DNA of 32,000 nt from an uncultured archaeon. GTDB taxonomy: Archaea; Iainarchaeota; Iainarchaeia; Iainarchaeales; Iainarchaeaceae. The stretch spans positions 85,300-117,299 of the forward strand of contig CAZNZM010000004.1 of NCBI GenBank assembly GCA_964577555.1. Direction: 5' to 3'. Position numbers and translations under genes: made by a program. The notes under the pieces were generated by a model. The model did no database searches and was not told where the DNA came from. It worked only from the letters and a program-made list of their open reading frames with translations. Shown piece after piece: positions 3,534-25,938 of this stretch (position 1 is the stretch's first letter; every line of letters starts with the position of its first letter).

Positions 3534-3690
3534 CAAAAAAAAACAACAAAAACAAAACTCACAAAAAAAACAAGCCACAAAAAAAATCAAAATTTTCATA
3601 AAAAAATAAAAGAATTGACACGCAAAAACAAAAAAACAACACAAACAACAACCTAAAAAAAACAAAAATACAAAACAAGCTTAACAGAAA
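3534..3690. repeat. A/C-rich intergenic island (small member of the family)
   Basis: A-runs broken by C. Contains AAACTCACAAAAAAAACAAGCCACAAAAAAAA, related to 7866-7888 and 25515-25538, and GAATTGACACGC. Confidence 0.6.
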
Positions 3691-6899: not shown

Positions 6900-7550
6900 A
6901 TGAAGCAAAACAGCAGCATAATAGAAATAATAGAAAAAATGGTCAGGGACGGCGAACCAGAAGAAAAAATATTAAAAACACTCCTCGAGCTCGGCGTGGA
7001 ACCTGAAAAAGCAAAAAAACTGCTTCTGTTGGGGCAAGCAGATACATTTTCACTACTTAAAAGAGAAATAAGAAACATAGTACACGATGAATTAGAAAAA
7101 GAAAAACCAATGCTCAAAAAATTCATAGAAGAAGAAACAATACAAGCAAACTACGAAGCAAGACAAGAACTGACAAAAGCAGTAATAAGCGACCTAAAAG
7201 AATATGAAAAAGACATTTCAGGATACAACAAAACATTCCAAGAAAAAATTGAAGAAAATGTCAGAAAAATAACCGAAATGAACGACAAACTAAAAATAAA
7301 ACTAAACGAAATGGGAGAAAACCTTAGACAAGTACAAATAGACATGGATGAAATGAGAATAAAAGGAATAGGGTCAAGAAACAAACTAATAAGCAACGCA
7401 CTCTGGCTATTAGGACTATTTTTCGGAGTTGGAACATTCTACATTTTCATCACAAGTTTCGGACAAGCACTAACAATCGACAACATAATAGTAATGATAA
7501 CAATGGCGCTAATCACAATAACAATGCTTTTTGTGGCAACAATAATATGA
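6900..7550 (+). CDS. hypothetical coiled-coil protein with C-terminal TM helices
   Basis: 216-aa ORF with long K/E-rich helical segments and two C-terminal hydrophobic helices. Lies 3 nt after the previous stop. Confidence 0.55.
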   Translation: MKQNSSIIEIIEKMVRDGEPEEKILKTLLELGVEPEKAKKLLLLGQADTFSLLKREIRNIVHDELEKEKPMLKKFIEEETIQANYEARQELTKAVISDLKEYEKDISGYNKTFQEKIEENVRKITEMNDKLKIKLNEMGENLRQVQIDMDEMRIKGIGSRNKLISNALWLLGLFFGVGTFYIFITSFGQALTIDNIIVMITMALITITMLFVATII

Positions 7551-7817
7551 AAAAGCCAAAAACAAGTTCAAAAAAAACAAACAAAAAAATTAATTGAAAA
7601 CTAAAAATGAAAACACGCTTCACTAAAAAAAACGGCTCTACAAGAAAAAGACCATAAACGATTGAATTTTAAAATTAAAAATTGACAAAAAAAACTTGGC
7701 TAAAAAAAAACAGACAAACAAAAATTCAAAAAAAACAAAAAAACGGCTCACAAAAACAAACAACAAAAAAAACCAACCAAAAAAAAATAAGAAAAAAAAT
7801 GACTTGCAAAAAAACAA

Positions 7818-7858
7818 AAAAAAATAACAAAAAAACTTGACAAGCAACATCAAAAAAA
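7818..7858 (+). repeat. 41-nt module identical to 25783-25823
   Basis: AAAAAAATAACAAAAAAACTTGACAAGCAACATCAAAAAAA, compared base by base with the 25.8-kb copy. A related copy lies at 21084-21099 (CTTGGCTAGCAATATC). Confidence 0.85.
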
Positions 7859-7860
7859 CA

Positions 7861-7954
7861 AAATTGGCTTGCAAAAAAACAAGCCACAACAAAATAATTG
7901 ACAAAAAAAATCGTCCAACAAAAAAACCAAAAAAACCGCAAAAAAATGGCTCAC
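7861..7954 (+). repeat. ~95-nt module, ~96% identical to 25510-25604
   Basis: Hand alignment gives 3 substitutions (TG/CA at 7870-7871, G/A at 7938) and one A-run length difference. Confidence 0.85.
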
Positions 7955-8018
7955 AAAAAACAAAAAAATAATGACAAAAAAAGGCTCGCCAAAACAAATT
8001 TAAAAAAAATAAAAAAAT

Positions 8019-8141
8019 TCAAGCTTTCTCATAATCCTTCAAATTCTTTAAAGCGTTCTCAAGCAAAATTTTTTTCCTCAAACTTTTTTCCTTAGAAATC
8101 AACCGGTCGATTTCACTTATAATCATTTCAATTTCCAACAT
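8019..8141 (-). CDS. candidate 40-aa helical small protein, absent from the ORF track
   Basis: MLEIEMIISEIDRLISKEKSLRKKILLENALKNLKDYEKA. TATA-like TTTTTAAATT lies on the minus strand (top-strand 8164-8173), 22 nt before the ATG. This patch is top-strand T-rich, against the local A/C background. Confidence 0.35.
   Translation of the reverse strand: MLEIEMIISEIDRLISKEKSLRKKILLENALKNLKDYEKA
8069..8089 (+). terminator. oligo-T tracts: first plus-strand T-runs downstream of gene 6900..7550
   Basis: T7 at 8069-8075 and T6 at 8084-8089. Archaeal termination typically uses oligo-T. These tracts overlap the candidate minus-strand small ORF. Confidence 0.35.
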
Positions 8142-8191
8142 ATTACTAATAAATCATTCGAGCAATTTAAAAATAAAAGCAAAAAAAATAA

Positions 8192-8593
8192 TCAACGCAA
8201 AGTGCTTTGCAAACCACAAAGAACATCAATAGAAACACCAAACTTTCTCGCCTTTTCAAACGAAATAGTATAATACTTTCCCTTGGCAAAATCAGAAGCC
8301 TTAAGAAAAAACCAGCCTTTATTAGGATACTTCCAAGCAATATAAGTTTCACTGCCAGCAATCCTCTCCCACTTTATGAGGTCATTCATTTGAATGGAAC
8401 TAATAGCTAAATAAGGAGCTCTCCAAGCCTTACATTCTATTGAAATATTCCTGCCATTACCAAGCACAATAAGGTCAGGGCTAGGCAAATGATTCTTGCC
8501 AGAACCAGCACTGCGAACAACAGCAAAACCGCGTTCAGCAAAAAGCTCCATAAGTTCACGCTCAGCACTTGCCCCTTTATTATAACGAGCCAT
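8192..8593 (-). CDS. hjc: Holliday junction resolvase Hjc
   Basis: 133 aa. KGASAERELMELFAERGFAVVRSAGSG...PDLIV...ECK matches the archaeal Hjc nuclease core. A T8 tract on the minus strand lies just after the stop. Confidence 0.9.
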   Translation of the reverse strand: MARYNKGASAERELMELFAERGFAVVRSAGSGKNHLPSPDLIVLGNGRNISIECKAWRAPYLAISSIQMNDLIKWERIAGSETYIAWKYPNKGWFFLKASDFAKGKYYTISFEKARKFGVSIDVLCGLQSTLR

Positions 8594-10542: not shown

Positions 10543-10621
10543 AACAAAAACCTAAATACAAACAACCTCCAATTTCAAAATAAAAAAAAGCAACAACAAT
10601 AAAATTCCAAAAAAATAAATT

Positions 10622-11318: not shown

Positions 11319-11320
11319 AT

Positions 11321-11494
11321 AAAAAAAACAAAACTGCTACAAAAAAAACAAAAAAAATTTAACCTAAAAAATCGGCTGCAAAAAACACTGACAATACAAA
11401 AAAAATCCAAAAATAACAAAAACCATAAAAACTTAAAAACAACTTAAAAAAAAATTCAAAAACAATAATAATAAGCAAAATAATAATCAGTAAA
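11321..11494. repeat. A/C-rich intergenic island (small member)
   Basis: A-runs carrying AAACTGCTAC, AATCGGCTGCAAAAAAC and CACTGACAATAC. Confidence 0.5.
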
Positions 11495-13153
11495 ATGAAA
11501 AAAAACATAATTGCACTAATCATGCTAATAAACATAGCAACAATAACACAATCAAACGAAATAATTCCAAACACTATAAAATCTGCAGACTTTACAATTC
11601 ATACAGAAACAAAAGGAAACTTCTACGGAAAAATAACAAACGGAGACACCCTAGAAATAAAAATACTACAACCACAAAATAACGAAACACAAAAAATAAT
11701 AGAAGAAGAAAGCTACTTAGAAATAGGAAATGACAAAATACTGCCAACAAAAACAAATGAAAAAGAACTCCAATACCTAACATTCAAAATAAGCAACTTA
11801 TTAAAATACGCAAAAACACCTGAATTCAAAATAAAAAACACTGTAAGAGTGAAAAAAACAACTGACATAAAAATAGGAAAAGATTACAACCTGACAAAAA
11901 CAATAAACAAATACGAAGAATACAAAAAGCCAAGCGAATATGTTGAATCAAACGATCCAACACTGCAAAGCAAAGCAACACTTGAATTTACTTCAGACTC
12001 ATGGATAGAAAATGCAATACAAATATCGGAATGGATTAACTCAAACATAAAATACGACTTTGAAAATTATTACAACGAAACATACAGCGCAAAACAAACC
12101 TACAACAACAAAGCAGGAGTATGCGACGAATTCGCAAACCTAACAATAGCATTCGGCAGAATAAAAGGAATACCTGCAAAATATGTCGCAGGAATAAGCT
12201 TTGACGGCCAAAGATTCGCAAACCACGGTTGGGCAGAATTTTACAACCCTGAAACCGGCTGGATTCCAATAGATACAACTTTTGCAGAAACAGGATACGT
12301 AGATGCGGCACACATAGAATACTCAAAATCGAAAGATGCGAATAAAAACCCAGACATGATAATAATAACAAACAGCAAATACCAAATAGAAGCCTATGCA
12401 ACAACATCAGAACCAGAAGTAACAATAAACTCAATAGAAAGATTCTCAAGAATGACAAAAATAACAGATGAAACCCCAGAAAAAGTATCCCCAAACGAAC
12501 AATTCGAAATCAAAGCAACAATACAAAACATCTCAAACAATGACGGAATATTTCCAATAAAACTAATAATACACCCTGATTTCAAAACAACAAACACACA
12601 AAAACTAATACACTTAAAAGCTGGAGAAACCAAAAAAATAAGTTGGAAAACAACAGCACCAAACGAAAACACCGAAGAAACAGACTACACTTACAAAACG
12701 ATAATAGCCACAATAGACGGAAACATAGAAAAAACAATAACCGTAACAGGAAAAAAAGACGAAACAAAAAAGGAAATATCAATAATAGACATAAACCCAG
12801 AAATAAAAGAAAATAAAATAAAAATCACTATAACACTGGAAAACCCAAACCAAACCCAAAAAATAAAAATAAAATTCCTAAAAGAAAACGAAACAATAGA
12901 AAAAGAATACGAACTGCCAAACCAATCATATTACAAAATTGAAGAAACTTTTGACAACACCAATACAGACACAATAGAAATCAAAATATACTTAAAAGAA
13001 GAAAAAACATACAAAATAACAATTCCAAAACAAAAAGAAGAAACAAACCAAGAAGAACAAACAACGCTTATAGCAAAAATAACAGCTACAATAATTATAA
13101 CAATTACAACAATAATAATTACAGCACTATTAATTGCAAAATCAAGACAATAA
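11495..13153 (+). CDS. transglutaminase-like cysteine protease domain surface protein
   Basis: N-terminal signal/anchor. Cys-His-Asp core in GVCDEFANL, HGWAEFY and WIPIDTT. Ig-like C-terminal half. C-terminal TM anchor ATIIITITTIIITALLIAKSRQ. Confidence 0.8.
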   Translation: MKKNIIALIMLINIATITQSNEIIPNTIKSADFTIHTETKGNFYGKITNGDTLEIKILQPQNNETQKIIEEESYLEIGNDKILPTKTNEKELQYLTFKISNLLKYAKTPEFKIKNTVRVKKTTDIKIGKDYNLTKTINKYEEYKKPSEYVESNDPTLQSKATLEFTSDSWIENAIQISEWINSNIKYDFENYYNETYSAKQTYNNKAGVCDEFANLTIAFGRIKGIPAKYVAGISFDGQRFANHGWAEFYNPETGWIPIDTTFAETGYVDAAHIEYSKSKDANKNPDMIIITNSKYQIEAYATTSEPEVTINSIERFSRMTKITDETPEKVSPNEQFEIKATIQNISNNDGIFPIKLIIHPDFKTTNTQKLIHLKAGETKKISWKTTAPNENTEETDYTYKTIIATIDGNIEKTITVTGKKDETKKEISIIDINPEIKENKIKITITLENPNQTQKIKIKFLKENETIEKEYELPNQSYYKIEETFDNTNTDTIEIKIYLKEEKTYKITIPKQKEETNQEEQTTLIAKITATIIITITTIIITALLIAKSRQ

Positions 13154-14456: not shown

Positions 14457-14900
14457 AAAAAAACAAAAAAAATGAAACCAACAAACCAAAAAAAAAACAA
14501 AACTTCAAACAAAAAAAATACCAAACAAAAAATATCAAAAAAATGCCTAACAAAAAAATAAAAAAAATAAAATAGATCAAAAAAAACTACTTGCAAAAAA
14601 ACAAAACCCAATTAAAAAAACAACAAAAAAAACAAATTGAAAAAAAATAAATGAGAAAAAAAATTAAGGCACACAAAGACAAAACAAAAAATAAATACCC
14701 AAAAAAATGAAATCAAACAAAAAAAATAAAGTTGCCAAAAAAAATGGCTTGCAAAAACAAAAAGAAAAAAAAGCAATTTGAATTTTCTTAAAAACAAAAA
14801 AAACACAAAAATCGGTCGACAAAAAAATGCCAAAAAAAACGAGACAAAGAAAAAAATGACACAAAAAAAATAATTAGAAAATGGAAAAGACAAAGCCTCT
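14457..14900. repeat. A/C-rich intergenic island (~445 bp)
   Basis: Words include ACTACTTGC, CCCAATTAAAAAAA (module shared with 21041 and 25761), TAAGGCACAC, GTTGCCAAAAAAAATGGCTTGC, TCGGTCGAC, ATGCCAAAA and ATGACAC. Confidence 0.8.
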
Positions 14901-14967
14901 AAAACAAGCTTTTTAAATGTTTTTTGAGAAACATTAATAACTTCTAATTTTAATTAATTGGAAGTTT

Positions 14968-16186: not shown

Positions 16187-16614
16187 AAGGAGAGCAAGCA
16201 AATTACAACATATCGCTAGCAAAAGCATTTCTATATCCCCCAAAAAAAAGAATAATAAAAGCAATAGGTGTTATAAAAAAATTTGCAAAAAAACACACAA
16301 GAGCAAAAACAATAAATATAGCAAACGAAGTCAATGAGTACCTGCATAAAAATTCGAAAAACTTGCCAAGAAAAGTCAATGCAATCCTATTCAAAGAAAA
16401 CGACAAAATAACAATATTCATGCAAAACGGAAAAGAACTAAAAACATACCTAAAAAAAAGAGAAGAAGAAAAGAAAAAAAAAGAAGAGAAAAAAGAAGAA
16501 CAAAAAAAAGAAAAAAACGAAAAAGAAGAAACAGATAAAATAAAACTTGAAGAAAAAAAGAAAAAAGAAGAAGCCGCGGAAGCCTCACAAATAAAAAGAA
16601 AAACAAACAAGTGA
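16183..16614 (+). CDS. rpl31e: 50S ribosomal protein L31e with K/E-rich C-terminal extension
   Basis: Core YNISLAKAF...KRIIKAIGVIKKFAKKH...ANEVNEYL. GAGGG Shine-Dalgarno 7 nt upstream. Confidence 0.85.
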   Translation: MKGEQANYNISLAKAFLYPPKKRIIKAIGVIKKFAKKHTRAKTINIANEVNEYLHKNSKNLPRKVNAILFKENDKITIFMQNGKELKTYLKKREEEKKKKEEKKEEQKKEKNEKEETDKIKLEEKKKKEEAAEASQIKRKTNK

Positions 16615-17955: not shown

Positions 17956-19260
17956 ATGTTCGACTTCCTAAAGAAAAAAATAACAAATTTTACAGACAAA
18001 CTCAAAGAAGTACTACAAACAAAAAAAGAAGAAACAACAGAACAAAAAAAACAAATTGAACCTGAAAAAGAACAAAAAGAACCAGAACAAACAATTAAAA
18101 TAGAAAAAAACGAAAAAGAAACACAAGAAACAGAACAAAAACAAACTGAAAAAAAAGAAACAACACAACAAATTCAAAAAACGTTGAAAGAACCAGAAAA
18201 ATTTGAAAACTTAAAAGAAAAAACACAAACAAACATAGAACAAAAACATGAAACAAAACAAGAATCAAAAACACAACCAATAGAAAAAAAAACATTCACA
18301 GAAATCATAAAAGGAATTTTCACGCAAAAACAGCCAACTGAAAAAAAAACAACACAAATAATTGAAGATAAAAGAGAACTCAAAGCAAAAACAGGAATAC
18401 TGCAGAAAGTCACAAGCGCAGTAACTGGCAAAATAAAAATAAACGAAAAAGACACACAAAACTTTTTTGACGAACTAGAACTAAGCCTCTTAGAAGCAGA
18501 TGTAGAACAAGAAACAGCAACAGCAATAGTAAAACAACTCAAAAACCAATTAATCGGAAAAGAAATTTCCGCAAAAGAAGACCTAACCAGCTACCTTAAC
18601 AATGAAATAAGAAAAGCGCTTTCAAAAGTAATGGAAACAGAAAAAATAAACATATCACAAATTGAAAAAAAACCATTAAAAATATTATTCGTTGGCCCAA
18701 ATGGTGCAGGAAAAACAACAACAATAGCAAAAATAGCAAACTACTTCCTGAAAACAAACAAAAGCGTTATAATGGCTGCGGGTGACACTTTCAGGGCCGC
18801 ATCAATAGAACAACTAGAAACACACGCAAACAAACTTGGGGTAAAAATAGTAAAACAAAACTATGGTTCAGACCCAGCAGCAGTAGCATTCGACGCAGTA
18901 AAAGCAGCCGAAGCAAAAAACATAGATGTAGTACTTATAGACACTGCAGGAAGACAAGAAACAAACAAAAACCTAATTGAAGAACTAAAAAAAATAGACA
19001 GAGTAATAAAACCAGACATAAAACTTTACGTAGGAGAAGCATATACAGGACAGGCATTACTAGAACAAGCAAGCGAATTCAACAAAGCAATAGGTATAGA
19101 TGGATTCATACTTACAAAAATAGACGCAGACGCAAAAGGTGGAACAGCAATTTCACTACTTTACACACTCAAAAAACCAATAGTTTTCATAGGAACCGGA
19201 CAAAACTATGACGATTTAATAGAATTCAAACCAGAATTCATAATAGACAGAATAATATAA
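17956..19260 (+). CDS. ftsY: signal recognition particle receptor FtsY with long K/E/T/Q-rich N-terminal domain
   Basis: SRP GTPase motifs GPNGAGKTTT, DTAGR and TKIDADAKGG. Starts MFDFLKKKITNF. Confidence 0.92.
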   Translation: MFDFLKKKITNFTDKLKEVLQTKKEETTEQKKQIEPEKEQKEPEQTIKIEKNEKETQETEQKQTEKKETTQQIQKTLKEPEKFENLKEKTQTNIEQKHETKQESKTQPIEKKTFTEIIKGIFTQKQPTEKKTTQIIEDKRELKAKTGILQKVTSAVTGKIKINEKDTQNFFDELELSLLEADVEQETATAIVKQLKNQLIGKEISAKEDLTSYLNNEIRKALSKVMETEKINISQIEKKPLKILFVGPNGAGKTTTIAKIANYFLKTNKSVIMAAGDTFRAASIEQLETHANKLGVKIVKQNYGSDPAAVAFDAVKAAEAKNIDVVLIDTAGRQETNKNLIEELKKIDRVIKPDIKLYVGEAYTGQALLEQASEFNKAIGIDGFILTKIDADAKGGTAISLLYTLKKPIVFIGTGQNYDDLIEFKPEFIIDRII

Positions 19261-19391: not shown

Positions 19392-19676
19392 ATGAAAGTA
19401 TCGGAACTTAAACCAAAATCAGCAGTGCCAGAAATAACATTAGAAATTGTTTCCAAAGGAGAACCAAGAAAATGGTTAAATGAAAGAGGGGCAGGAACAG
19501 TATGCAACTGCGCAGCAAAAGACGATACAGGGGAAATATCCTTAAGTTTATGGAACGAACAATGCGACACAGTAAATGAAGGTGATAAAATTATAATAAA
19601 AGACGGATGGTGCAACGAATACAAAGGGCAATTACAAATATCAACTGGAAAAAAAGGAAAAATTGAAAAAATTTGA
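19392..19676 (+). CDS. small OB-fold single-stranded nucleic-acid-binding protein
   Basis: 94 aa. GTVCNCAAKDDTGEISLSLWNEQ...GDKIIIKDGWCNEYKGQLQIS is a typical SSB/RPA-type OB fold. Confidence 0.7.
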   Translation: MKVSELKPKSAVPEITLEIVSKGEPRKWLNERGAGTVCNCAAKDDTGEISLSLWNEQCDTVNEGDKIIIKDGWCNEYKGQLQISTGKKGKIEKI

Positions 19677-19860
19677 AACATAAAAAAAACAAAAAAAACT
19701 GAAACAAAACTTGGCTTAAATCAATACAAAAGAAAAAACATTTTTCAATTAAAATAAAAAATTATCCAAATAATAAGCAGGTTAAAACAACAAAAAAAAT
19801 CCAAAAACCAAACAAAAAATAAAAAAAGAAAGTAAAAAAAAACTAATAAAAAGTTTTTTT
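19677..19860. repeat. A/C-rich intergenic island (small member)
   Basis: A-runs containing AAAACTTGGCTTAAATC. Followed by a compositionally normal, non-coding 260 bp. Confidence 0.5.
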
Positions 19861-20126
19861 AACAAAATAAGTTATAAAAAGCCAATAAATTGAAAAATAA
19901 AACATTTTAACGTTTAAAACGGTAAAAAAAAGGAATAATTAGGTTTTAATGTTTGAATCGTTTTTTTTGTTAGACTTTGAAAATCGATGCGTTTAAATAT
20001 TACCTCAACAGGATATTATAAAGGGTTGGATTCAACTATAGCTACTTTTTCAAATGGATTTAAGCATTTGATTAGACGGCTGGGTTGAATTTCATGATTT
20101 AATCATAAATAAGGAGGAAAATAAAG

Positions 20127-20438
20127 ATGGAGAGAAATAACAGAAGAAACAGGTTTGGACCAATACCAGTGAAAGAAGGAGAAGAACAAGAAGTAACAAT
20201 AGAAGGAATAGGAGAAAAAGGAGACGGCATAGCAAAAGTACAAGGCTATGTTATAATTGTTCCTAACACCCAAAAAGGAGAAAGAGTAAAAGTAAAAATC
20301 AAAGCAGTAAGAGGCAAAGTAAGCTTTGCAGAAGTAATAGAAAAACTTGGAACTGCGACACAAGAACAAAACCAAGAATCAAAAAACGAAGAAAATCAAA
20401 GCCTTGAAAATAACTCTGACGAAGAAAACCAAAACTAA
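20127..20438 (+). CDS. TRAM-domain RNA-binding protein with acidic/Asn-rich tail
   Basis: VTIEGIGEKGDGIAKVQGYVIIVPNTQKGERVKVKIKAVRGKVSFAEVI is a TRAM fold signature. Strong AAGGAGG Shine-Dalgarno at 20111-20117. Confidence 0.85.
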   Translation: MERNNRRNRFGPIPVKEGEEQEVTIEGIGEKGDGIAKVQGYVIIVPNTQKGERVKVKIKAVRGKVSFAEVIEKLGTATQEQNQESKNEENQSLENNSDEENQN

Positions 20439-20499
20439 AAAATAATATTTATGTATTAAATCAATTTTAATGCAAATACAAAAAAAAGGAGGGTTGGAA

Positions 20500-20706
20500 A
20501 TGGCAAGCTTAAGCGAACTAATAGGAATTGAACCAAGCGAAGAACTAAGAACAAAACTTCTAAAACAAGAATTCAAACTCAGGAAAAAACAACCTGAAGC
20601 ATGGACAAAAACAAAATACAGGCCATACGCAAACTTCAGGGCAAAGAAAAAAGAAGAAATTACAAACGAAAACAACACAAAAAAAATAGCAATAATTGAA
20701 GCATAA
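20500..20706 (+). CDS. hypothetical small basic protein (68 aa)
   Basis: I prefer ATG 20500 (MASLSELIGIEPSEEL...), with GGAGGG Shine-Dalgarno upstream, inside track ORF 20470..20706. No family recognised. Confidence 0.55.
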   Translation: MASLSELIGIEPSEELRTKLLKQEFKLRKKQPEAWTKTKYRPYANFRAKKKEEITNENNTKKIAIIEA

Positions 20707-20738
20707 ACAAAAAAATAATTTAATGCATACTAAATATT

Positions 20739-20759
20739 CTCGGCACTAAAAGTGCCGGG
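20739..20759 (+). terminator. GC-rich hairpin downstream of the small protein gene
   Basis: CTCGGCACT-AAA-AGTGCCGGG: 9-bp stem with one G-T pair. A T6 tract follows about 55 nt later, at 20814-20819. Confidence 0.35.
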
Positions 20760-20760
20760 C

Positions 20761-21290
20761 TTTACAAAAACAAAATAAAAAAACCCAACTATCAGTATCT
20801 TAAAACACAAAAATTTTTTGCTAGCCAAACTTGAAAAAAAAGGAAAAAACTAAAACCTGACACACAAAAACAAAAAAATAAAATTAACCAAACAAAAACG
20901 AATAACAAAAAATCACTAAAACTACAAAACAAAAAAAAAAGACACAAAATAAAGTTAAATTTCAAAAAAAAAATAATAAAAATAGCATAAAAAAAATTGG
21001 CATACAAAAAAAGGCTCGCCAAAAACAAACAACAAAAAAAACAAAATCCAATTAAAAAAAACAAAAAATAATGACAAAAAAAACTTGGCTAGCAATATCA
21101 AAAAAAACAGCACACAAAAACAAAAAAAACAACTTGACAAAAAAAACAATTAAAAATTAAAAACTGATTTTACAAAACAAAACAGCCACCAACAAAATTT
21201 CGAAAAACATCAAAAAAGCAAAGTAAACCAAAAGAATTATCTGCACTAACCCCTAAAAATGCCGAAAACAATGCAATTTGCTTATTAAAA
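20761..21290. repeat. A/C-rich intergenic island (~530 bp)
   Basis: Words include TTGCTAGCCAA (20818-20828), CCTGACACAC, TTGGCATAC, GGCTCGCC, TCCAATTAAAAAAAA, AATGACA, CTTGGCTAGCAATATC and CTTGACA. Modules shared with 7.9-kb, 14.6-kb and 25.7-kb islands. Confidence 0.8.
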
Positions 21291-21332
21291 ATACATTACA
21301 CATTTAATTTTAAAAGCAAAGAGTGATAAAAA

Positions 21333-22682
21333 ATGGGTTTAGGCGAAAGCCTCAGAAAAGCAGTCGAAAAAATAAGAAATTCAAGCACTCTGGACAGAGA
21401 AACAGTAAAAGAAGCAATCAAGGAACTACAAAGAGCATTAATCTCGGCAGACGTAGAAATAACATTAGTACTAAAACTAAGCAAAGAAATAGAAGAAGAA
21501 GCATTCAAAGACCTACCAGAAGGAATAAGCAGAAAAGAACACGTAATCAAAACAACACACGACAAACTTACAGAAATGCTAGGAGGCACGACAAAACCGC
21601 CACAACAACCAAAAAGAATACTCTTGTTAGGTTTATTCGGGCAAGGAAAAACCACGACAGCAGGAAAATTGGCAAAATGGTACTCAAAAAGAGGAAATAA
21701 AGTAGGGTTGATAGGAGCCGATGTTTTCAGACCTGCGGCAATAGAACAATTAAGAACAATCGCGGAAAAAGCAAAAGCGGAGTTTTATGGCGATGAAAAA
21801 GAAAAAAGCGCCGCAAAAATAGCAAAAACAGGAATTGAAAAACTAAAAAATTGCGACATAATAATATGCGACTCGGCAGGCAGAAGCGCACTAGACCAGG
21901 AACTAATAAAAGAAATAAAAGAAATAAACGAAGCATTCAAACCAGAACAAAAATGGCTTGTAATAAGCGCCGATGTAGGACAAATAGCCAAAAAACAAGC
22001 AAATGCATTCCATGAAGCAATCGGAATAAACGGCGTAATACTGACAAAAACAGACGGCTCTGCAAAAGGAGGAGGAGCACTCGCAGCATGCAAAGCAACA
22101 GGAGCCAACGTTTATTTCATAGGCACAGGAGAAAAAATAGATGACTTCCAAGAATTCGATTCAACAAGATACTTGAGCAGAATAATGGGCTATGGCGACC
22201 TGCAAGCACTACTTGAAAAAGCAAAAGAAATACAAGAAGACCAAGGAATAGAAGAACAAGAATTAATACTAAAAGACTTCAACCTGGCCAATTTCTACAA
22301 ACAACTCAAAACAGCAAGAAAAATGGGGCCAATAAACAAAATAATGGAAATGTTAGGGCTAAGCCAAAAAATGCCAAAAGAACTAATGGAACTAGGAGAA
22401 CAAAAACTAGACAAATACGGTTATATGATAGACTCAATGACAAAATACGAAAAAGAACACCCAGAACTAATTAACAAAAGCAGAATAGCAAGAATTGCAA
22501 AAGGAAGCGGAACAACACAAGAAGAAGTAAGAGAACTACTAAAAAACTTCAAAAAAATGAAAAAAATGTTCAAACAACTAAGCAACATAGACACTGAAAA
22601 AATTGAAAAAGGCGATGCCGAAGCACTGCAAAAAAAACTTTACAACACATTCAAAAAAAAGAAAAAATTCAAAATAAGGTGA
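21333..22682 (+). CDS. srp54: signal recognition particle protein SRP54
   Basis: GLFGQGKTTT, DSAGR and TKTDGSAKGG motifs. Methionine-rich M domain (KMGPINKIMEMLG). Confidence 0.95.
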   Translation: MGLGESLRKAVEKIRNSSTLDRETVKEAIKELQRALISADVEITLVLKLSKEIEEEAFKDLPEGISRKEHVIKTTHDKLTEMLGGTTKPPQQPKRILLLGLFGQGKTTTAGKLAKWYSKRGNKVGLIGADVFRPAAIEQLRTIAEKAKAEFYGDEKEKSAAKIAKTGIEKLKNCDIIICDSAGRSALDQELIKEIKEINEAFKPEQKWLVISADVGQIAKKQANAFHEAIGINGVILTKTDGSAKGGGALAACKATGANVYFIGTGEKIDDFQEFDSTRYLSRIMGYGDLQALLEKAKEIQEDQGIEEQELILKDFNLANFYKQLKTARKMGPINKIMEMLGLSQKMPKELMELGEQKLDKYGYMIDSMTKYEKEHPELINKSRIARIAKGSGTTQEEVRELLKNFKKMKKMFKQLSNIDTEKIEKGDAEALQKKLYNTFKKKKKFKIR

Positions 22683-24568: not shown

Positions 24569-25461
24569 AAATAGCAATAACCGGCAGCGAAGGAATGATT
24601 GGCAAAGAACTTACAAAAAACCTAGAAAGAAAAAACCACAAAATAATCAAATGCACAAAACAAGAATGCAACATACTTGACATTGAAAAACTTAGAAAAA
24701 AATTCAAAGGTTGCAAGATAATTATACACCTTGCCGCACAACTTGACGAAAAAGCAAAAGACTTGTGGGAAGTAAATGTAAAAGGAACAGAAAATTGCCT
24801 CGAAGCGGCAGCAACAAATGGAATTGAACAATTTATTTACATAAGCAGCGTAGGCGTTTTTGGACTACAAAAAGGGCTAAAAGACGAATCAACAGAACCA
24901 AAACCAGAAACACTATACGAAAAAAGCAAATTAGAAGCTGAAAAAAAAGTTCTATCATACCAAGAAGTTTTCCACATAACAATATTGAGGCCTGCAATAG
25001 TAGTTGGAAACAATAAATATTGGAACCAAATAATCAAACTCATAAAAAAAGGTTTCCCAATTATTGGCAACGGAAAAAACCATTGGCAAACAATCTCCAC
25101 AGAAGATGTTGCAAATGCAATTGAATTCTGCATAGGCAACGAAAACACATACGGAGAAACATTCATAATAGCTGAAAAAAAACCGAAAACACTTGAAGAA
25201 ATCGTAAAAATAATAAGAAACGAATTGGAAATAAAAGGAAAAATAATAAAAATACCAGAATGGCTTGGAAAAATATTGGCAAAAATAAACACCATAATAA
25301 AATTCAACAACATACTCAACATAGAATACATTAAAAGGTTGCAAGCTGACAGGCACTATTCAATTTCAAAAATTGAAAAAATAGGATGGAAACCAAAAAA
25401 CAATTTTGAAGAAACAATAAAAAAAGTCATAGAACAAATGAAAAAAGACAACCAATTATAA
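24565..25461 (+). CDS. NAD-dependent epimerase/dehydratase family protein
   Basis: MKIAITGSEGMIGKEL Rossmann motif and YEKSK catalytic motif. ATGA overlap with the ribD stop. AAGGTG Shine-Dalgarno upstream. Confidence 0.85.
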   Translation: MKIAITGSEGMIGKELTKNLERKNHKIIKCTKQECNILDIEKLRKKFKGCKIIIHLAAQLDEKAKDLWEVNVKGTENCLEAAATNGIEQFIYISSVGVFGLQKGLKDESTEPKPETLYEKSKLEAEKKVLSYQEVFHITILRPAIVVGNNKYWNQIIKLIKKGFPIIGNGKNHWQTISTEDVANAIEFCIGNENTYGETFIIAEKKPKTLEEIVKIIRNELEIKGKIIKIPEWLGKILAKINTIIKFNNILNIEYIKRLQADRHYSISKIEKIGWKPKNNFEETIKKVIEQMKKDNQL

Positions 25462-25938
25462 AAAAAATATCGCCAAAACAAAAAAACCAATCAAAAAAAT
25501 AAGAAAACAAAATTGGCTCACAAAAAAACAAGCCACAACAAAATAATTGACAAAAAAAATCGTCCAACAAAAAAACCAAAAAAAACCACAAAAAAATGGC
25601 TCACCAAAAAAAACAAAAATTGTCTAAAAAAAGGCTCACAAAAAACAACAAAAAAACAGCCCGCAAAACAAATCCAAAAATAAAAAAAACAACCAGACAA
25701 AACAAAAAACAAAATTAATTACAAAAAAAAGACCACAAAAAAAATTGGCTCACAAAAAAAACAAAACCAAATTAAAAAAAACAAAAAAATAACAAAAAAA
25801 CTTGACAAGCAACATCAAAAAAAACAAGCCATGAAAAAAAATTCAAATAAAAAACAAATCACTCCTCAAAAAAATGGCTAGCCAAAAAAAAGACGTAAAA
25901 AAAGATTGATTAAAATAAAATCATTGAAAAATAATCAC
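25462..25938. repeat. A/C-rich intergenic island (~477 bp)
   Basis: Words include ATCGCCAA, TTGGCTCAC (twice), CAAGCCAC, TTGACA, TCGTCC, TGGCTCACC, GGCTCAC, CAGCCCGC, CTTGACAAGC, CAAGCCATG and the perfect palindrome TGGCTAGCCA (25875-25884). Confidence 0.8.

What the first reader, a model, noticed from the sequence alone, without database searches (positions are those of the whole stretch)
7551..8010. Family of A/C-only intergenic islands punctuated by short G/T words in an otherwise tightly packed genome
Seven intergenic stretches are involved: 3534-3690, 7551-8010, 11321-11494, 14457-14900, 19677-19860, 20761-21290 and 25462-25938. Four of them are about 445-530 bp.

They consist of A-runs broken by C and by short G/T-containing words such as TTGGCTCAC, ATGGCTCAC, GGCTCGCC, TGGCTAGCCA, CTTGACAAGC, AATTGACA, TCGGTCGAC and TCGTCC. 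They carry no credible ORF. The top strand hits TAA every few codons, and the bottom strand gives only poly-Phe artefacts.

Together they make up roughly 2.4 kb, or 7-8% of a window whose genes otherwise overlap or sit 1-30 nt apart. They share sequence modules in different orders, so they are a repeat family rather than random low-complexity DNA.

Because this strand drifts toward A/C, the retained G/T words are the best candidates for selected sites.

Possible roles, all inference:
- arrays of binding sites for a dimeric DNA-binding or chromatin protein
- long A/C-rich 3' UTRs or ncRNAs
- bottom-strand oligo-T walls that stop antisense or convergent transcription
- decayed MITE-like elements

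I know of no described element matching this.
Basis: partly seen in the sequence, partly recalled or inferred. Interest (0 to 1): 0.7.

Follow-up and report, generated by a model that had tools for sequence, protein, structure and literature searches.

The report
Oriented A-rich repeat filler between archaeal genes
The A/C-rich gaps are real non-coding DNA in a tiny DPANN archaeon: their composition matches the genome's one-sided mutational drift, and their short G/T words belong to a lineage-specific repeat family that is copied between gaps and then erodes, with no sign of position-conserved functional sites.

Summary
All seven stretches are A 61-69%, C 11-18%, and share G/T-containing words far beyond shuffles.

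The host is a DPANN archaeon related to Diapherotrites/Iainarchaeota.

- **Composition is not island-specific.** Four-fold degenerate sites of genes on both strands have the same + strand composition as the islands (A about .65, C .14-.16, G .06-.11, T .13). A-runs pile up at 7-8 nt and stop at 10, in genes too.
- **The words form a strictly oriented repeat family.** GGCTC occurs 14 times in the islands and GAGCC never; TTGAC 12 times and GTCAA never.
- **Copying is recent.** A 95-nt and a 50-nt module are 93-96% identical between two islands 18 kb apart.
- **One island was gained recently.** An 88.5%-identical sister lineage lacks one whole island (a 444-bp clean indel) and keeps the other five at the same places.
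- **Interiors are not conserved.** Sister-lineage island interiors align barely better than shuffled sequence. Orthologous islands share no more words than non-orthologous ones.

The islands are not tandem arrays, MITEs with inverted ends, structured RNAs or genes. My best reading is copy-and-decay repeat filler that accumulates downstream of genes. Function is not excluded. Interest is moderate.

The parts
3534..3690 (+). Island I1, between two + genes (HerA-like gene and the next gene). It holds an eroded copy of module Y (aaaaCTCACaaaaaaaaCAAGCCAC), where TTGG has become AAAA.
   Evidence: family D2. Identical in an independent assembly.
7551..8010 (+). Island I2, 460 nt between convergent genes (+ gene ending at 7550, small - ORF ending about 8012).
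7809..7858 (+). Module X (..AATAACAAAAAAACTTGACAAGCAACATCAAAAAAA), 96% identical to 25774-25823 and 80% to 21057-21106.
   Evidence: (family D12).
7852..7949 (+). Module Y (AAAATTGGCTTGC-A7-CAAGCCACAACAAAATAATTGAC-A8-TCGTCCAAC...TGGCTCAC), 93% identical to 25501-25598. It contains the only good hairpin, TGGCTTG/CAAGCCA at 7865-7886.
   Evidence: (family D2).
10543..10621 (+). Mini-island, 79 nt between convergent genes. It has island composition (A .63, C .19, G .01) and almost no words.
11319..11494 (+). Island I3, from the 3' end of tRNA-Val to the next + gene. Few words (TCGGCTGC, CTGAC).
14457..14900 (+). Island I4, between the RNase P Rpr2 gene and the S19e gene. It shares only single words and A-runs with the others. 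The TATA region of the next gene follows at 14905-14925.
19677..19860 (+). Island I5, the weakest member (T 0.19, one CTTGGCTT word).
20761..21260 (+). Island I6 proper, upstream of SRP54. It is present at the same place in the sister lineage. Only GGCTCGCCAA and AAAATYCAATTAAAAAAAA are kept there.
21013..21093 (+). Composite unit: GGCTCGCC - A-rich - AAAATCCAATT-A8 - AATAATGAC-A8 - CTTGGCTAGC. It is one of 7 copies of this multi-word unit in the two lineages.
21261..21332 (+). Not island: the conserved promoter-proximal region of SRP54 (GCAATTTGCTTATTAAAAATACATTACACAT).
25462..25938 (+). Island I7, 477 nt between convergent genes (epimerase + and GGGP synthase -). It has the richest set of intact GGCTCAC words.
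25467..25910 (+). A 444-bp segment absent from the sister lineage, where the two genes are 21 nt apart. ATAAAA occurs at both edges.
   Evidence: More distant relatives also lack a spacer here.
25501..25598 (+). Copy of module Y (see 7852-7949).
25745..25823 (+). Composite unit (TTGGCTCAC-A8-CAAAACCAAATT-A8 ...) running into a copy of module X (25774-25823).

Best explanation
The islands are non-coding filler DNA of a DPANN archaeal chromosome. They are shaped by two processes.

**1. Strand-wide mutational drift (shown).**
- In this lineage the + strand drifts toward A and, less so, toward C, whatever the direction of the genes. Unconstrained DNA therefore settles at about A .65, C .15, T .13, G .07.
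- A-runs grow to a ceiling of 7-8 nt.
- This alone explains the 'A/C-only' look and the A7-8/C rhythm.

**2. A lineage-specific, one-orientation repeat family (shown to exist and to be copied recently).**
- Short modules are built from a TGGCTCAC/GGCTCGCC/TGGCTAGCC-type word, a CAATT-A8 block and a CTTGACA-type word. Each is followed by A7-8.
- These modules are copied from island to island. They then erode back toward A/C by G-to-A and T-to-C or T-to-A changes.
- At the measured neutral rate a word such as TGGCT has only about a 3% chance of surviving the split between the two known lineages. Both lineages are nevertheless full of the same words, at non-corresponding positions. The vocabulary is therefore regenerated by copying, not preserved site by site.

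**Inferred steps.**
- Copying keeps orientation. I take this to mean template switching or ectopic gene conversion at the ubiquitous A-runs on the same replication arm. A single-strand, IS200/IS605-like, orientation-locked transposition is the alternative.
- Islands accumulate where insertions do least harm: downstream of genes, and especially between convergent genes.

**Side effects (sequence-level fact, function untested).**
- The bottom strand carries a T7-8 run about every 25 nt. That is strong archaeal terminator sequence.
- The top strand has almost no T5+ run, so transcripts of + genes probably read into the islands.
For: **Composition matches neutral sites (third codon positions).**
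- Four-fold sites of + genes: A .661, C .135, G .076, T .128.
- Four-fold sites of - genes, in + strand terms: A .628, C .134, G .110, T .128.
- Islands: A .646, C .159, G .063, T .132.

**A-run lengths.** In the islands A7 runs number 56 (16 expected) and A8 runs 70 (11 expected), with none above 10. Coding DNA shows the same ceiling.

**The family is real.**

**Orientation is strict.** GGCTC 14 against GAGCC 0; TTGAC 12 against GTCAA 0; CTTGC 6 against GCAAG 0.

**Copying is recent.**
- Module Y (95 nt) is 93% identical and module X (50 nt) 96% identical between I2 and I7, 18 kb apart.
- The I2-I7 homology score is 73, against 20.5 +/- 2.4 under shuffles that keep words and A-runs.

**One island was gained.** The 444-bp I7 is a clean indel against a sister that is 88.5% identical over 10.7 kb. 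More distant relatives also have no spacer there.

**Words erode.** I1 carries module Y with TTGG replaced by AAAA. GGCTCGCC, GGCTCACC and GGCTCAC form a G-to-A series.

**No positional constraint.**
- Four-fold site conservation is A .82, C .61, T .58, G .37.
- Orthologous island interiors give A .84, C .53, T .45, G .40, against A .82, C .48, T .43, G .26 for a shuffled partner.
- Cross-species word sharing is the same for orthologous and non-orthologous islands.

**Location.** All islands with both flanks known lie in ++ or +- gaps. None of the five -+ gaps holds one.

**More copies.** Further islands with the same vocabulary occur elsewhere on the same contig and in the sister lineage.
Against: - Five of six comparable islands sit at the same places, with similar lengths, in the sister lineage (283/266 and 449/473 nt). 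That is also what a maintained feature would look like.
- A few blocks are conserved at orthologous positions more than neutral decay predicts: GGCTCGCCAA, AAAATYCAATTAAAAAAAA, and TGACAAAAAAACTYGGCTCACAAAAAA.
- The conservation tests have little power. Low-complexity alignment is near saturation.
- No copying machinery (transposase, RAYT-like gene) was seen in the ~58 kb available.
- Several islands cluster at 444-477 nt, which a purely neutral process does not predict.
- Only ~58 kb from two lineages could be examined. Genome-wide behaviour is unknown.
Confidence: 0.55

Rival explanations
1. Functional arrays with turnover. The words (GGCUCAC, UUGACA, ACUUGC, each followed by A7-8) would be strand-specific signals. 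They could be RNA-level sites in long unstructured A-rich 3' UTRs of + strand genes, or polar DNA sites. Selection would act on their density, not their exact position, as happens with binding-site turnover in enhancers.
For: - Strict single orientation.
- Placement downstream of + genes.
- No T5+ run on the + strand within I2 or I7, so + transcripts probably traverse them.
- Islands persist at 5 of 6 positions with similar lengths in the sister lineage.
- A few word blocks are conserved at orthologous positions.
Against: - Orthologous islands share no more words than non-orthologous ones.
- Interiors align about as well as shuffled sequence.
- One island is absent in the sister, with the two genes 21 nt apart, and absent in all more distant relatives.
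- The long near-identical modules show copying, not convergence.
- Relatives with about 80% identical proteins lack islands entirely.
- There is no expression data.
Confidence: 0.2
2. Discrete non-autonomous mobile element. It would insert in one orientation relative to the replication fork, like IS200/IS605-derived palindrome-associated elements or REP/BIME clusters mobilised by a Y1 (HUH) transposase acting on single-stranded DNA.
For: - Presence/absence of a whole 444-bp island between 88.5%-identical genomes, with clean junctions.
- All copies share one orientation.
- Mosaic of shared modules in different orders.
- Small hairpins or palindromes occur in some modules: TGGCTTG/CAAGCCA, TGGCTAGCCA, CTTGACAAG.
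- Preference for 3' ends and convergent gaps.
Against: - No terminal inverted repeats and no consistent element ends.
- The duplicated ATAAAA at the junction is low-complexity, so it is uninformative.
- Hairpins are few, weak and not compensated between copies.
- No transposase was seen in the Pfam scans of 20 window proteins or in the precomputed Pfam listings for the called genes.
- Islands are not collinear end to end.
Confidence: 0.13
3. Transcription insulators. The islands would exist to stop antisense or convergent transcription through dense bottom-strand oligo-T terminators, and to space convergent genes apart.
For: - A7+ runs (T7+ on the bottom strand) occur at 40 per kb in the islands, against 4.9 per kb in + genes.
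- Four of the islands with both flanks known (I2, I7, L121 4762-5225 and L001 13737-13979), plus the 79-nt mini-island at 10543-10621, lie between convergent genes.
Against: - One T-run suffices for archaeal termination (established knowledge). The antisense of ordinary + genes already carries 20 T5+ runs per kb, so a 450-nt wall adds little.
- The same gene pair functions 21 nt apart in the sister.
- This does not explain the shared words.
Confidence: 0.07
4. Decayed remnants of lost genes that drifted to the strand's equilibrium composition during genome reduction.
For: - In relatives with about 80% identical proteins, other genes occupy the positions of I6 and I7.
- Composition equals that of neutral sites.
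Against: - There is no residual translated similarity to those genes.
- I7 is absent in the closest relative.
- Shared multi-word modules between islands cannot arise from unrelated dead genes.
Confidence: 0.03

Closest known systems
REP/BIME clusters (bacterial interspersed mosaic elements) and other small intergenic repeats of bacteria
   Same: - Short modules are reused in different orders.
- They are confined to intergenic DNA.
- They are enriched at 3' ends and between convergent genes.
- Paralogous copies within a genome are more alike than orthologous regions between species.
   Different: - REPs are G+C-rich imperfect palindromes with GTAG/CGTC heads, often in alternating orientation (PMC3733652, title and abstract only).
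- Here the words are 5-10 nt, mostly non-palindromic, all in one orientation, and embedded in A7-8 runs.
- The host is an archaeon, and no RAYT-like gene was seen.
[quoted passage not shown]
   Same: - Non-coding, intergenic and multi-copy.
- Presence/absence polymorphism between close relatives.
- Size range of hundreds of nt.
   Different: - No terminal inverted repeats.
- No defined ends.
- No unambiguous target-site duplication.
- A single orientation throughout.
A-enriched tandem repeats of Borg extrachromosomal elements of Methanoperedens (PMC9879509)
   Same: - Archaeal and fast-evolving.
- A-enriched on the coding strand at the expense of T.
- Found in both intergenic DNA and ORFs, where they give Lys/Glu-rich disordered segments. 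This window also has such coding segments.
- Absent from relatives.
   Different: - Borg repeats are perfect head-to-tail tandem arrays.
- Here the tandem-repeat scores do not exceed shuffles.
- The copies here are dispersed and eroded.
Strand-asymmetric composition of vertebrate mitochondrial DNA, and the whole-genome G/C strand disparity of the CPR bacterium Ch65 (PMC7143001)
   Same: One strand is A/C-rich and G-poor at neutral sites regardless of gene direction. Non-coding DNA simply takes that composition.
   Different: These are composition phenomena, not repeat families. In Ch65 the disparity is in G against C, with no A/T disparity. Here it is mainly A against T.

Membership tests
MITE | Terminal inverted repeats at both ends of each copy | tested here: not met
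   The inverted-repeat search within islands found only short internal palindromes. No terminal pairs were found.
MITE | Target-site duplication flanking an insertion | tested here: inconclusive
   ATAAAA occurs at both edges of the 444-bp indel, but it is low-complexity sequence in an A-run context.
MITE | Insertions in either orientation | tested here: not met
   All islands and all words are in one orientation across ~58 kb of two lineages.
REP/BIME | 20-40 nt G+C-rich imperfect palindrome forming a stable stem-loop | tested here: not met
   There is one 7-bp stem (7865-7886), and it is not compensated in its paralogue. Whole-island RNA folds give z = -1.9 and -0.6.
REP/BIME | Intergenic, 3'-end or convergent location with a mosaic of modules | tested here: met
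REP/BIME | Cognate RAYT (Y1 transposase) gene in the genome | not testable with these tools
   Only ~42 kb of this genome is available. None was seen in the Pfam scans of 20 window proteins or in the precomputed Pfam listings for the called genes.
Tandem repeat / minisatellite (including Borg-type TRs) | Head-to-tail copies with a consistent period | tested here: not met
   The best TRF scores (61-108, periods 20-37) are matched or exceeded by 34-69 of 100 shuffles that keep words and A-runs. There is no long-range G-G periodicity.
CRISPR array | Identical repeats of 25-40 nt separated by unique spacers of constant length | tested here: not met
   The direct-repeat and TRF outputs show no such structure.
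Structured non-coding RNA (any Rfam family) | Match to a covariance model, or folding energy beyond shuffles | tested here: not met
   Only three tRNAs reach gathering score in the window. There is no hit at E<=1 in 7400-8200 or 19600-21400. Fold z-scores are -1.9 and -0.6.
Protein-coding gene | Open frame conserved in relatives, or homologues in databases | tested here: not met
   Most frames hold 6-9 stops. There were no homologues at E<=0.01. Called ORFs are not conserved in the sister lineage.
Archaeal oligo-T terminator | Run of >=5 T on the non-template strand just downstream of a gene | tested here: met
   This is met trivially for the bottom strand (60 A5+ runs per kb). For the top strand it is rarely met (1.2 T5+ runs per kb). 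Actual termination cannot be tested here.

The most novel reading that the evidence does not exclude
The islands record an orientation-locked copying process tied to the replication strand, in an archaeon whose chromosome has mitochondrial-like strand asymmetry. It could be either a single-strand transposition system without inverted ends, or a template-switching process seeded by A7-8 runs. Alternatively, the words form a strand-specific code in long genome-encoded A-rich 3' tails of mRNAs, maintained by turnover and not by positional conservation.
Probability: 0.2. Interest if true: 0.7.

Novelty: new variant of a known kind. Interest (0 to 1): 0.42.

Why it matters
- **Genome economy.** DPANN archaea are held up as examples of extreme genome economy. 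Here about 8% of a 32-kb stretch is repeat-derived spacer that is gained and rewritten on the timescale of species divergence. Even these genomes therefore carry active 'junk'-generating processes.
- **Neutral read-out.** The islands give a clean view of the lineage's neutral mutational equilibrium. That equilibrium is unusually one-sided: A about .65 and G about .07 on one strand, whatever the gene direction.
- **Practical consequences.** The islands break metagenome assemblies. Several contigs end inside them. They also trigger spurious Lys-rich gene calls.
- **If the rivals hold.** If the copying proves to be strand-locked, or the words prove functional, the family would be a new kind of archaeal repeat system.

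Tried and rejected
- **Motif scan of genome contigs** with AAAANNGGCTCACAAAAAA. The pattern was too short.
- **Motif scan of metagenome contigs** with TGGCWYRCAAAAAAMCAAGCCA. It gave one chance hit inside a bacterial gene. The source contig is not in that collection.
- **Two viral-contig scans**. Only chance hits in coding DNA.
- **Protein search with concatenated island translations**, meant to fish other islands through spurious gene calls. No hits.
- **Exact look-up of the epimerase**. It failed because of its GTG start.
- **The 86%-identical GGGPS relative** (L125). It is G+C-richer, has no A drift, and its contig ends 20 nt after the gene. It was uninformative.
- **Tandem-array reading** (TRF periods 35-37). 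Rejected against shuffles.
- **Dead-gene remnants.** No tblastn signal.
- **Phased A-tract curvature.** The spectral peak is at 15.5-16.5 nt (word plus A-run), not at 10-11 nt.
- **Coding reading.** The frame of I7 that continues the epimerase has only 2 stops in 159 codons, against about 9 expected from the island's base composition. This is not significant after correcting for 21 frames, and it is not seen in other islands.
- **Covariance or sequence model of the composite unit.** Considered and dropped. In this composition any A-rich model would hit the + strand trivially.

Full report
**What the window is.** The proteins are archaeal: RadA, HerA/NurA, GGGP synthase, SRP54/FtsY, and ribosomal proteins S19e, L31e and L39e. 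The nearest database relatives of the GGGP synthase are annotated as Candidatus Diapherotrites or Iainarchaeum MAGs. The window lies on a 64,232-bp JGI metagenome contig. I could read 42.4 kb of that contig, plus about 16 kb from a sister lineage: L003 and L141-L143, 88.5-89.3% nucleotide identity.

**Checking the observation.** They are A 0.61-0.69, C 0.11-0.18, G 0.04-0.08, T 0.09-0.19, and total 2,426 nt. They share G/T-containing words far beyond chance:
- 72 shared 12-mers against 6.4 +/- 4.2 in dinucleotide shuffles.
- TGGCT 10 observed against 0.03 expected; GGCTCAC 6 against 0.

The aligned occurrences give a clear motif, A6-8-(WT/AC/A)-GGCT[CT][AG]C-A5-8-C. Two other word types recur, (C)TTGAC(A) and ACTTGC. 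A multi-word unit, WTGGCTCAC-A8-C-AAAAYYCAATT-A8-10 ... CTTGACA-A8, occurs seven times in the two lineages. The same vocabulary fills further islands on the rest of the contig.

Some details needed correction:
- 19861-20126 is a conserved TATA box plus the leader of the TRAM-domain gene.
- The last ~70 nt of the 20761-21290 island is the conserved SRP54 promoter.
- Several other 49-224-nt gaps exist.

**Composition is not a property of the islands.** Four-fold degenerate sites give the following:

| Sites | A | C | G | T |
|---|---|---|---|---|
| + strand genes | .661 | .135 | .076 | .128 |
| - strand genes, in + strand terms | .628 | .134 | .110 | .128 |
| Islands | .646 | .159 | .063 | .132 |

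The 'A/C-only' look is therefore the neutral composition of this strand, independent of transcription direction.

A-run lengths in the islands pile up at 7 and 8 and stop at 10: 56 and 70 observed against 16 and 11 expected. Coding DNA shows the same excess and ceiling. The resulting word-plus-run rhythm gives a spectral peak at 15.5-16.5 nt, not at the 10-11 nt expected for phased bending. Relatives whose proteins are about 80% identical have 40-51% G+C, weak skew and no islands at all.

**What the words are.** They are strictly one-orientation. In the islands GGCTC occurs 14 times and its complement GAGCC never. TTGAC occurs 12 times and GTCAA never, even though GTCAA is the compositionally favoured form on this strand. 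That argues against scattered sites for a symmetric DNA-binding protein. It argues for oriented copies or a strand-specific role.

- *Hairpins are rare.* There is one 7-bp stem at 7865-7886. Its paralogue at 25514 has lost two pairs without compensation.
- *The RNA would be essentially unstructured.* Whole-island folds give z = -1.9 and -0.6.
- *Rfam finds nothing*.
- *The islands are not tandem arrays.* TRF scores are matched by shuffles that keep words and A-runs.
- *They do not encode conserved proteins*.

**Evidence for copying.**
- A 95-nt module is 93% identical and a 50-nt module 96% identical between islands 7551-8010 and 25462-25938. The two modules appear in a different order in each island.
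- Against shuffles that preserve the words and A-runs, this pair scores 73 against 20.5 +/- 2.4. The 20761 island shows modest multi-word homology to both. The 14457 island shares only single words.
- The 25462-25938 island is missing from the sister lineage. The alignment breaks cleanly around a 444-bp segment, and the epimerase and GGGP synthase genes sit 21 nt apart.
- More distant relatives have these genes overlapping, or a different gene between them. Gain in the window lineage is therefore the parsimonious reading.

**Evidence against positional selection.** Between the two lineages, four-fold sites are conserved at A .82, C .61, T .58, G .37. From these figures, a word such as TGGCT would survive unchanged with probability about 0.03.

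Five of six comparable islands are present at the same places in the sister, with similar lengths. Their promoter-proximal ends, and an embedded tRNA, are well conserved. Their interiors, however, align hardly better than to a shuffled partner: A .84 against .82, C .53 against .48, T .45 against .43, G .40 against .26. G/T-rich 8-mers are shared across species equally by orthologous island pairs (12.97) and non-orthologous pairs (12.44).

Both lineages are nevertheless dense in the same words. The vocabulary is therefore regenerated family-wide, not preserved site by site. Erosion is visible directly:
- Island 3534-3690 carries module Y with TTGG turned into AAAA.
- GGCTCGCC, GGCTCACC and GGCTCAC form a G-to-A series.

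A few blocks are conserved at orthologous positions beyond neutral expectation: GGCTCGCCAA, AAAATYCAATTAAAAAAAA, and TGAC-A7-CTYGGCTCAC-A6. This could reflect constraint, or gene conversion from other copies. I cannot separate the two.

**Where the islands sit.** Every island with both flanks known lies after a + strand gene or tRNA, in ++ or +- gaps. Four of these islands, plus a 79-nt mini-island, lie between convergent genes. The five -+ (promoter-to-promoter) gaps are 53-224 nt and carry no island. This is the pattern expected where insertions are least harmful. It is also what a 3'-end function would give.

The bottom strand of the islands carries 40 T7+ runs per kb. However, the antisense of ordinary genes already carries 20 T5+ runs per kb, so a terminator wall adds little. 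The top strand almost lacks T5+ runs, with none in the two convergent islands. Transcripts of the + genes therefore probably run into them. That last step is inference.

**Most likely mechanism.** The islands are copy-and-decay repeat filler on a strand under strong A/C drift.
- *Shown:* the drift, the A-run ceiling, the oriented family, recent copying, gain of a whole island, and the lack of positional conservation.
- *Inferred:* copying proceeds by same-orientation template switching or ectopic conversion at A-run microhomology, or by a single-strand, orientation-locked transposition. Islands persist because they are nearly harmless.

Rivals and their tests are given in their own sections.

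**Comparison with known systems.** The islands resemble REP/BIME mosaics in placement and mosaicism. They resemble Borg tandem repeats in A-enrichment and rapid turnover (PMC9879509). They resemble MITEs in presence/absence behaviour. They fail the defining features of each: G+C-rich palindromes, perfect tandem structure, and terminal inverted repeats with two orientations. Four literature searches found no description of such elements in DPANN archaea. The nearest report on composition is a CPR bacterium with whole-genome G/C strand disparity (PMC7143001). I therefore rate the family as a new variant of a known kind (interspersed intergenic repeats), of moderate interest. The strand asymmetry itself is arguably the more surprising feature.

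**Limits.**
- Only about 58 kb from two lineages was available.
- Both large motif scans failed to find more members.
- Low-complexity alignments have little power.
- No expression or binding data exist.

Noticed in passing
whole window (and L001, L121, L003, L141): Extreme strand asymmetry that ignores gene direction. At four-fold sites, + genes are A .66 and T .13. The - genes are A .63 and T .13 in + strand terms, so their own sense strand is T-rich. G is only .08-.11. The pattern resembles the A/C-rich L-strand of vertebrate mitochondrial DNA. By the usual deamination logic, the strand carrying about 85% of the genes would be the lagging strand.
   Followed up: partly
whole window; e.g. 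5587, 16474, 18284: Homopolymer ceiling. A-runs are over-represented at 7-8 nt and essentially absent above 9-10 nt, both in islands and in coding DNA. This suggests a length threshold for slippage-driven contraction, or for selection.
   Followed up: partly
19861-20126: This non-island non-coding stretch lies upstream of the TRAM-domain gene (20127-20438). A TTTAAATA box preceded by AAAATCG, and parts of a ~110-nt leader ending in AGGAGG, are conserved in relatives with about 80% identical proteins. It is probably a promoter plus a long 5' UTR. Rfam has no match.
   Followed up: partly
12729-13104, 16403-16578, 17956-18400: Lys/Glu/Gln/Thr-rich low-complexity coding segments, with island-like composition, lie inside real genes: the transglutaminase C-terminus, the L31e-like C-terminus and the FtsY N-terminus. 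The same drift and expansion seems to act inside ORFs, as in the Borg amino-acid tandem repeats.
   Followed up: no
7682-7840, 7898-8095, 25596-25718; L121 4762-4995: The source annotation calls short, very basic ORFs (40-77 aa, e.g. MAHQKKQKLSKKRL...) inside the islands. ATGGCTCAC reads as Met-Ala-His. They are not conserved in the sister lineage and are probably spurious.
   Followed up: partly
25462-25938, frame in phase with the epimerase stop at 25459-25461: This frame has only 2 stop codons in 159 codons, against about 9 expected from the island's base composition. The other two frames have 8 each. This is not significant after correcting for 21 frames, but read-through would add a Lys-rich tail.
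   Followed up: partly
20741-20765: A G+C-rich hairpin (CGGCAC-TAAAA-GTGCCG followed by GGCTTT) lies just after the 78-aa gene ending at 20706. It is bacterial-terminator-like and unusual for this genome.
   Followed up: no
L121 1771-2219 (about 6 kb upstream of the window): A 449-nt island has a tRNA gene embedded on the opposite (- ) strand. The tRNA and the promoter-proximal part are near-identical in the sister lineage, while the surrounding island is not.
   Followed up: partly
ends of L003, L122, L141-L143 and of the source contig (L001 15593-15995): Independent assemblies repeatedly end inside islands. For example, L122 stops 32 nt into island 3534-3690, and L003 ends in islands at both ends. 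The islands fragment short-read assemblies, which may explain why this lineage is known only from short contigs.
   Followed up: partly
7551-8010, 14457-14900, 25467-25910; L121 4762-5225: Several islands cluster at 444-477 nt (460, 444, 444-477, 464). No common end-to-end architecture was found, so the size clustering is unexplained.
   Followed up: partly
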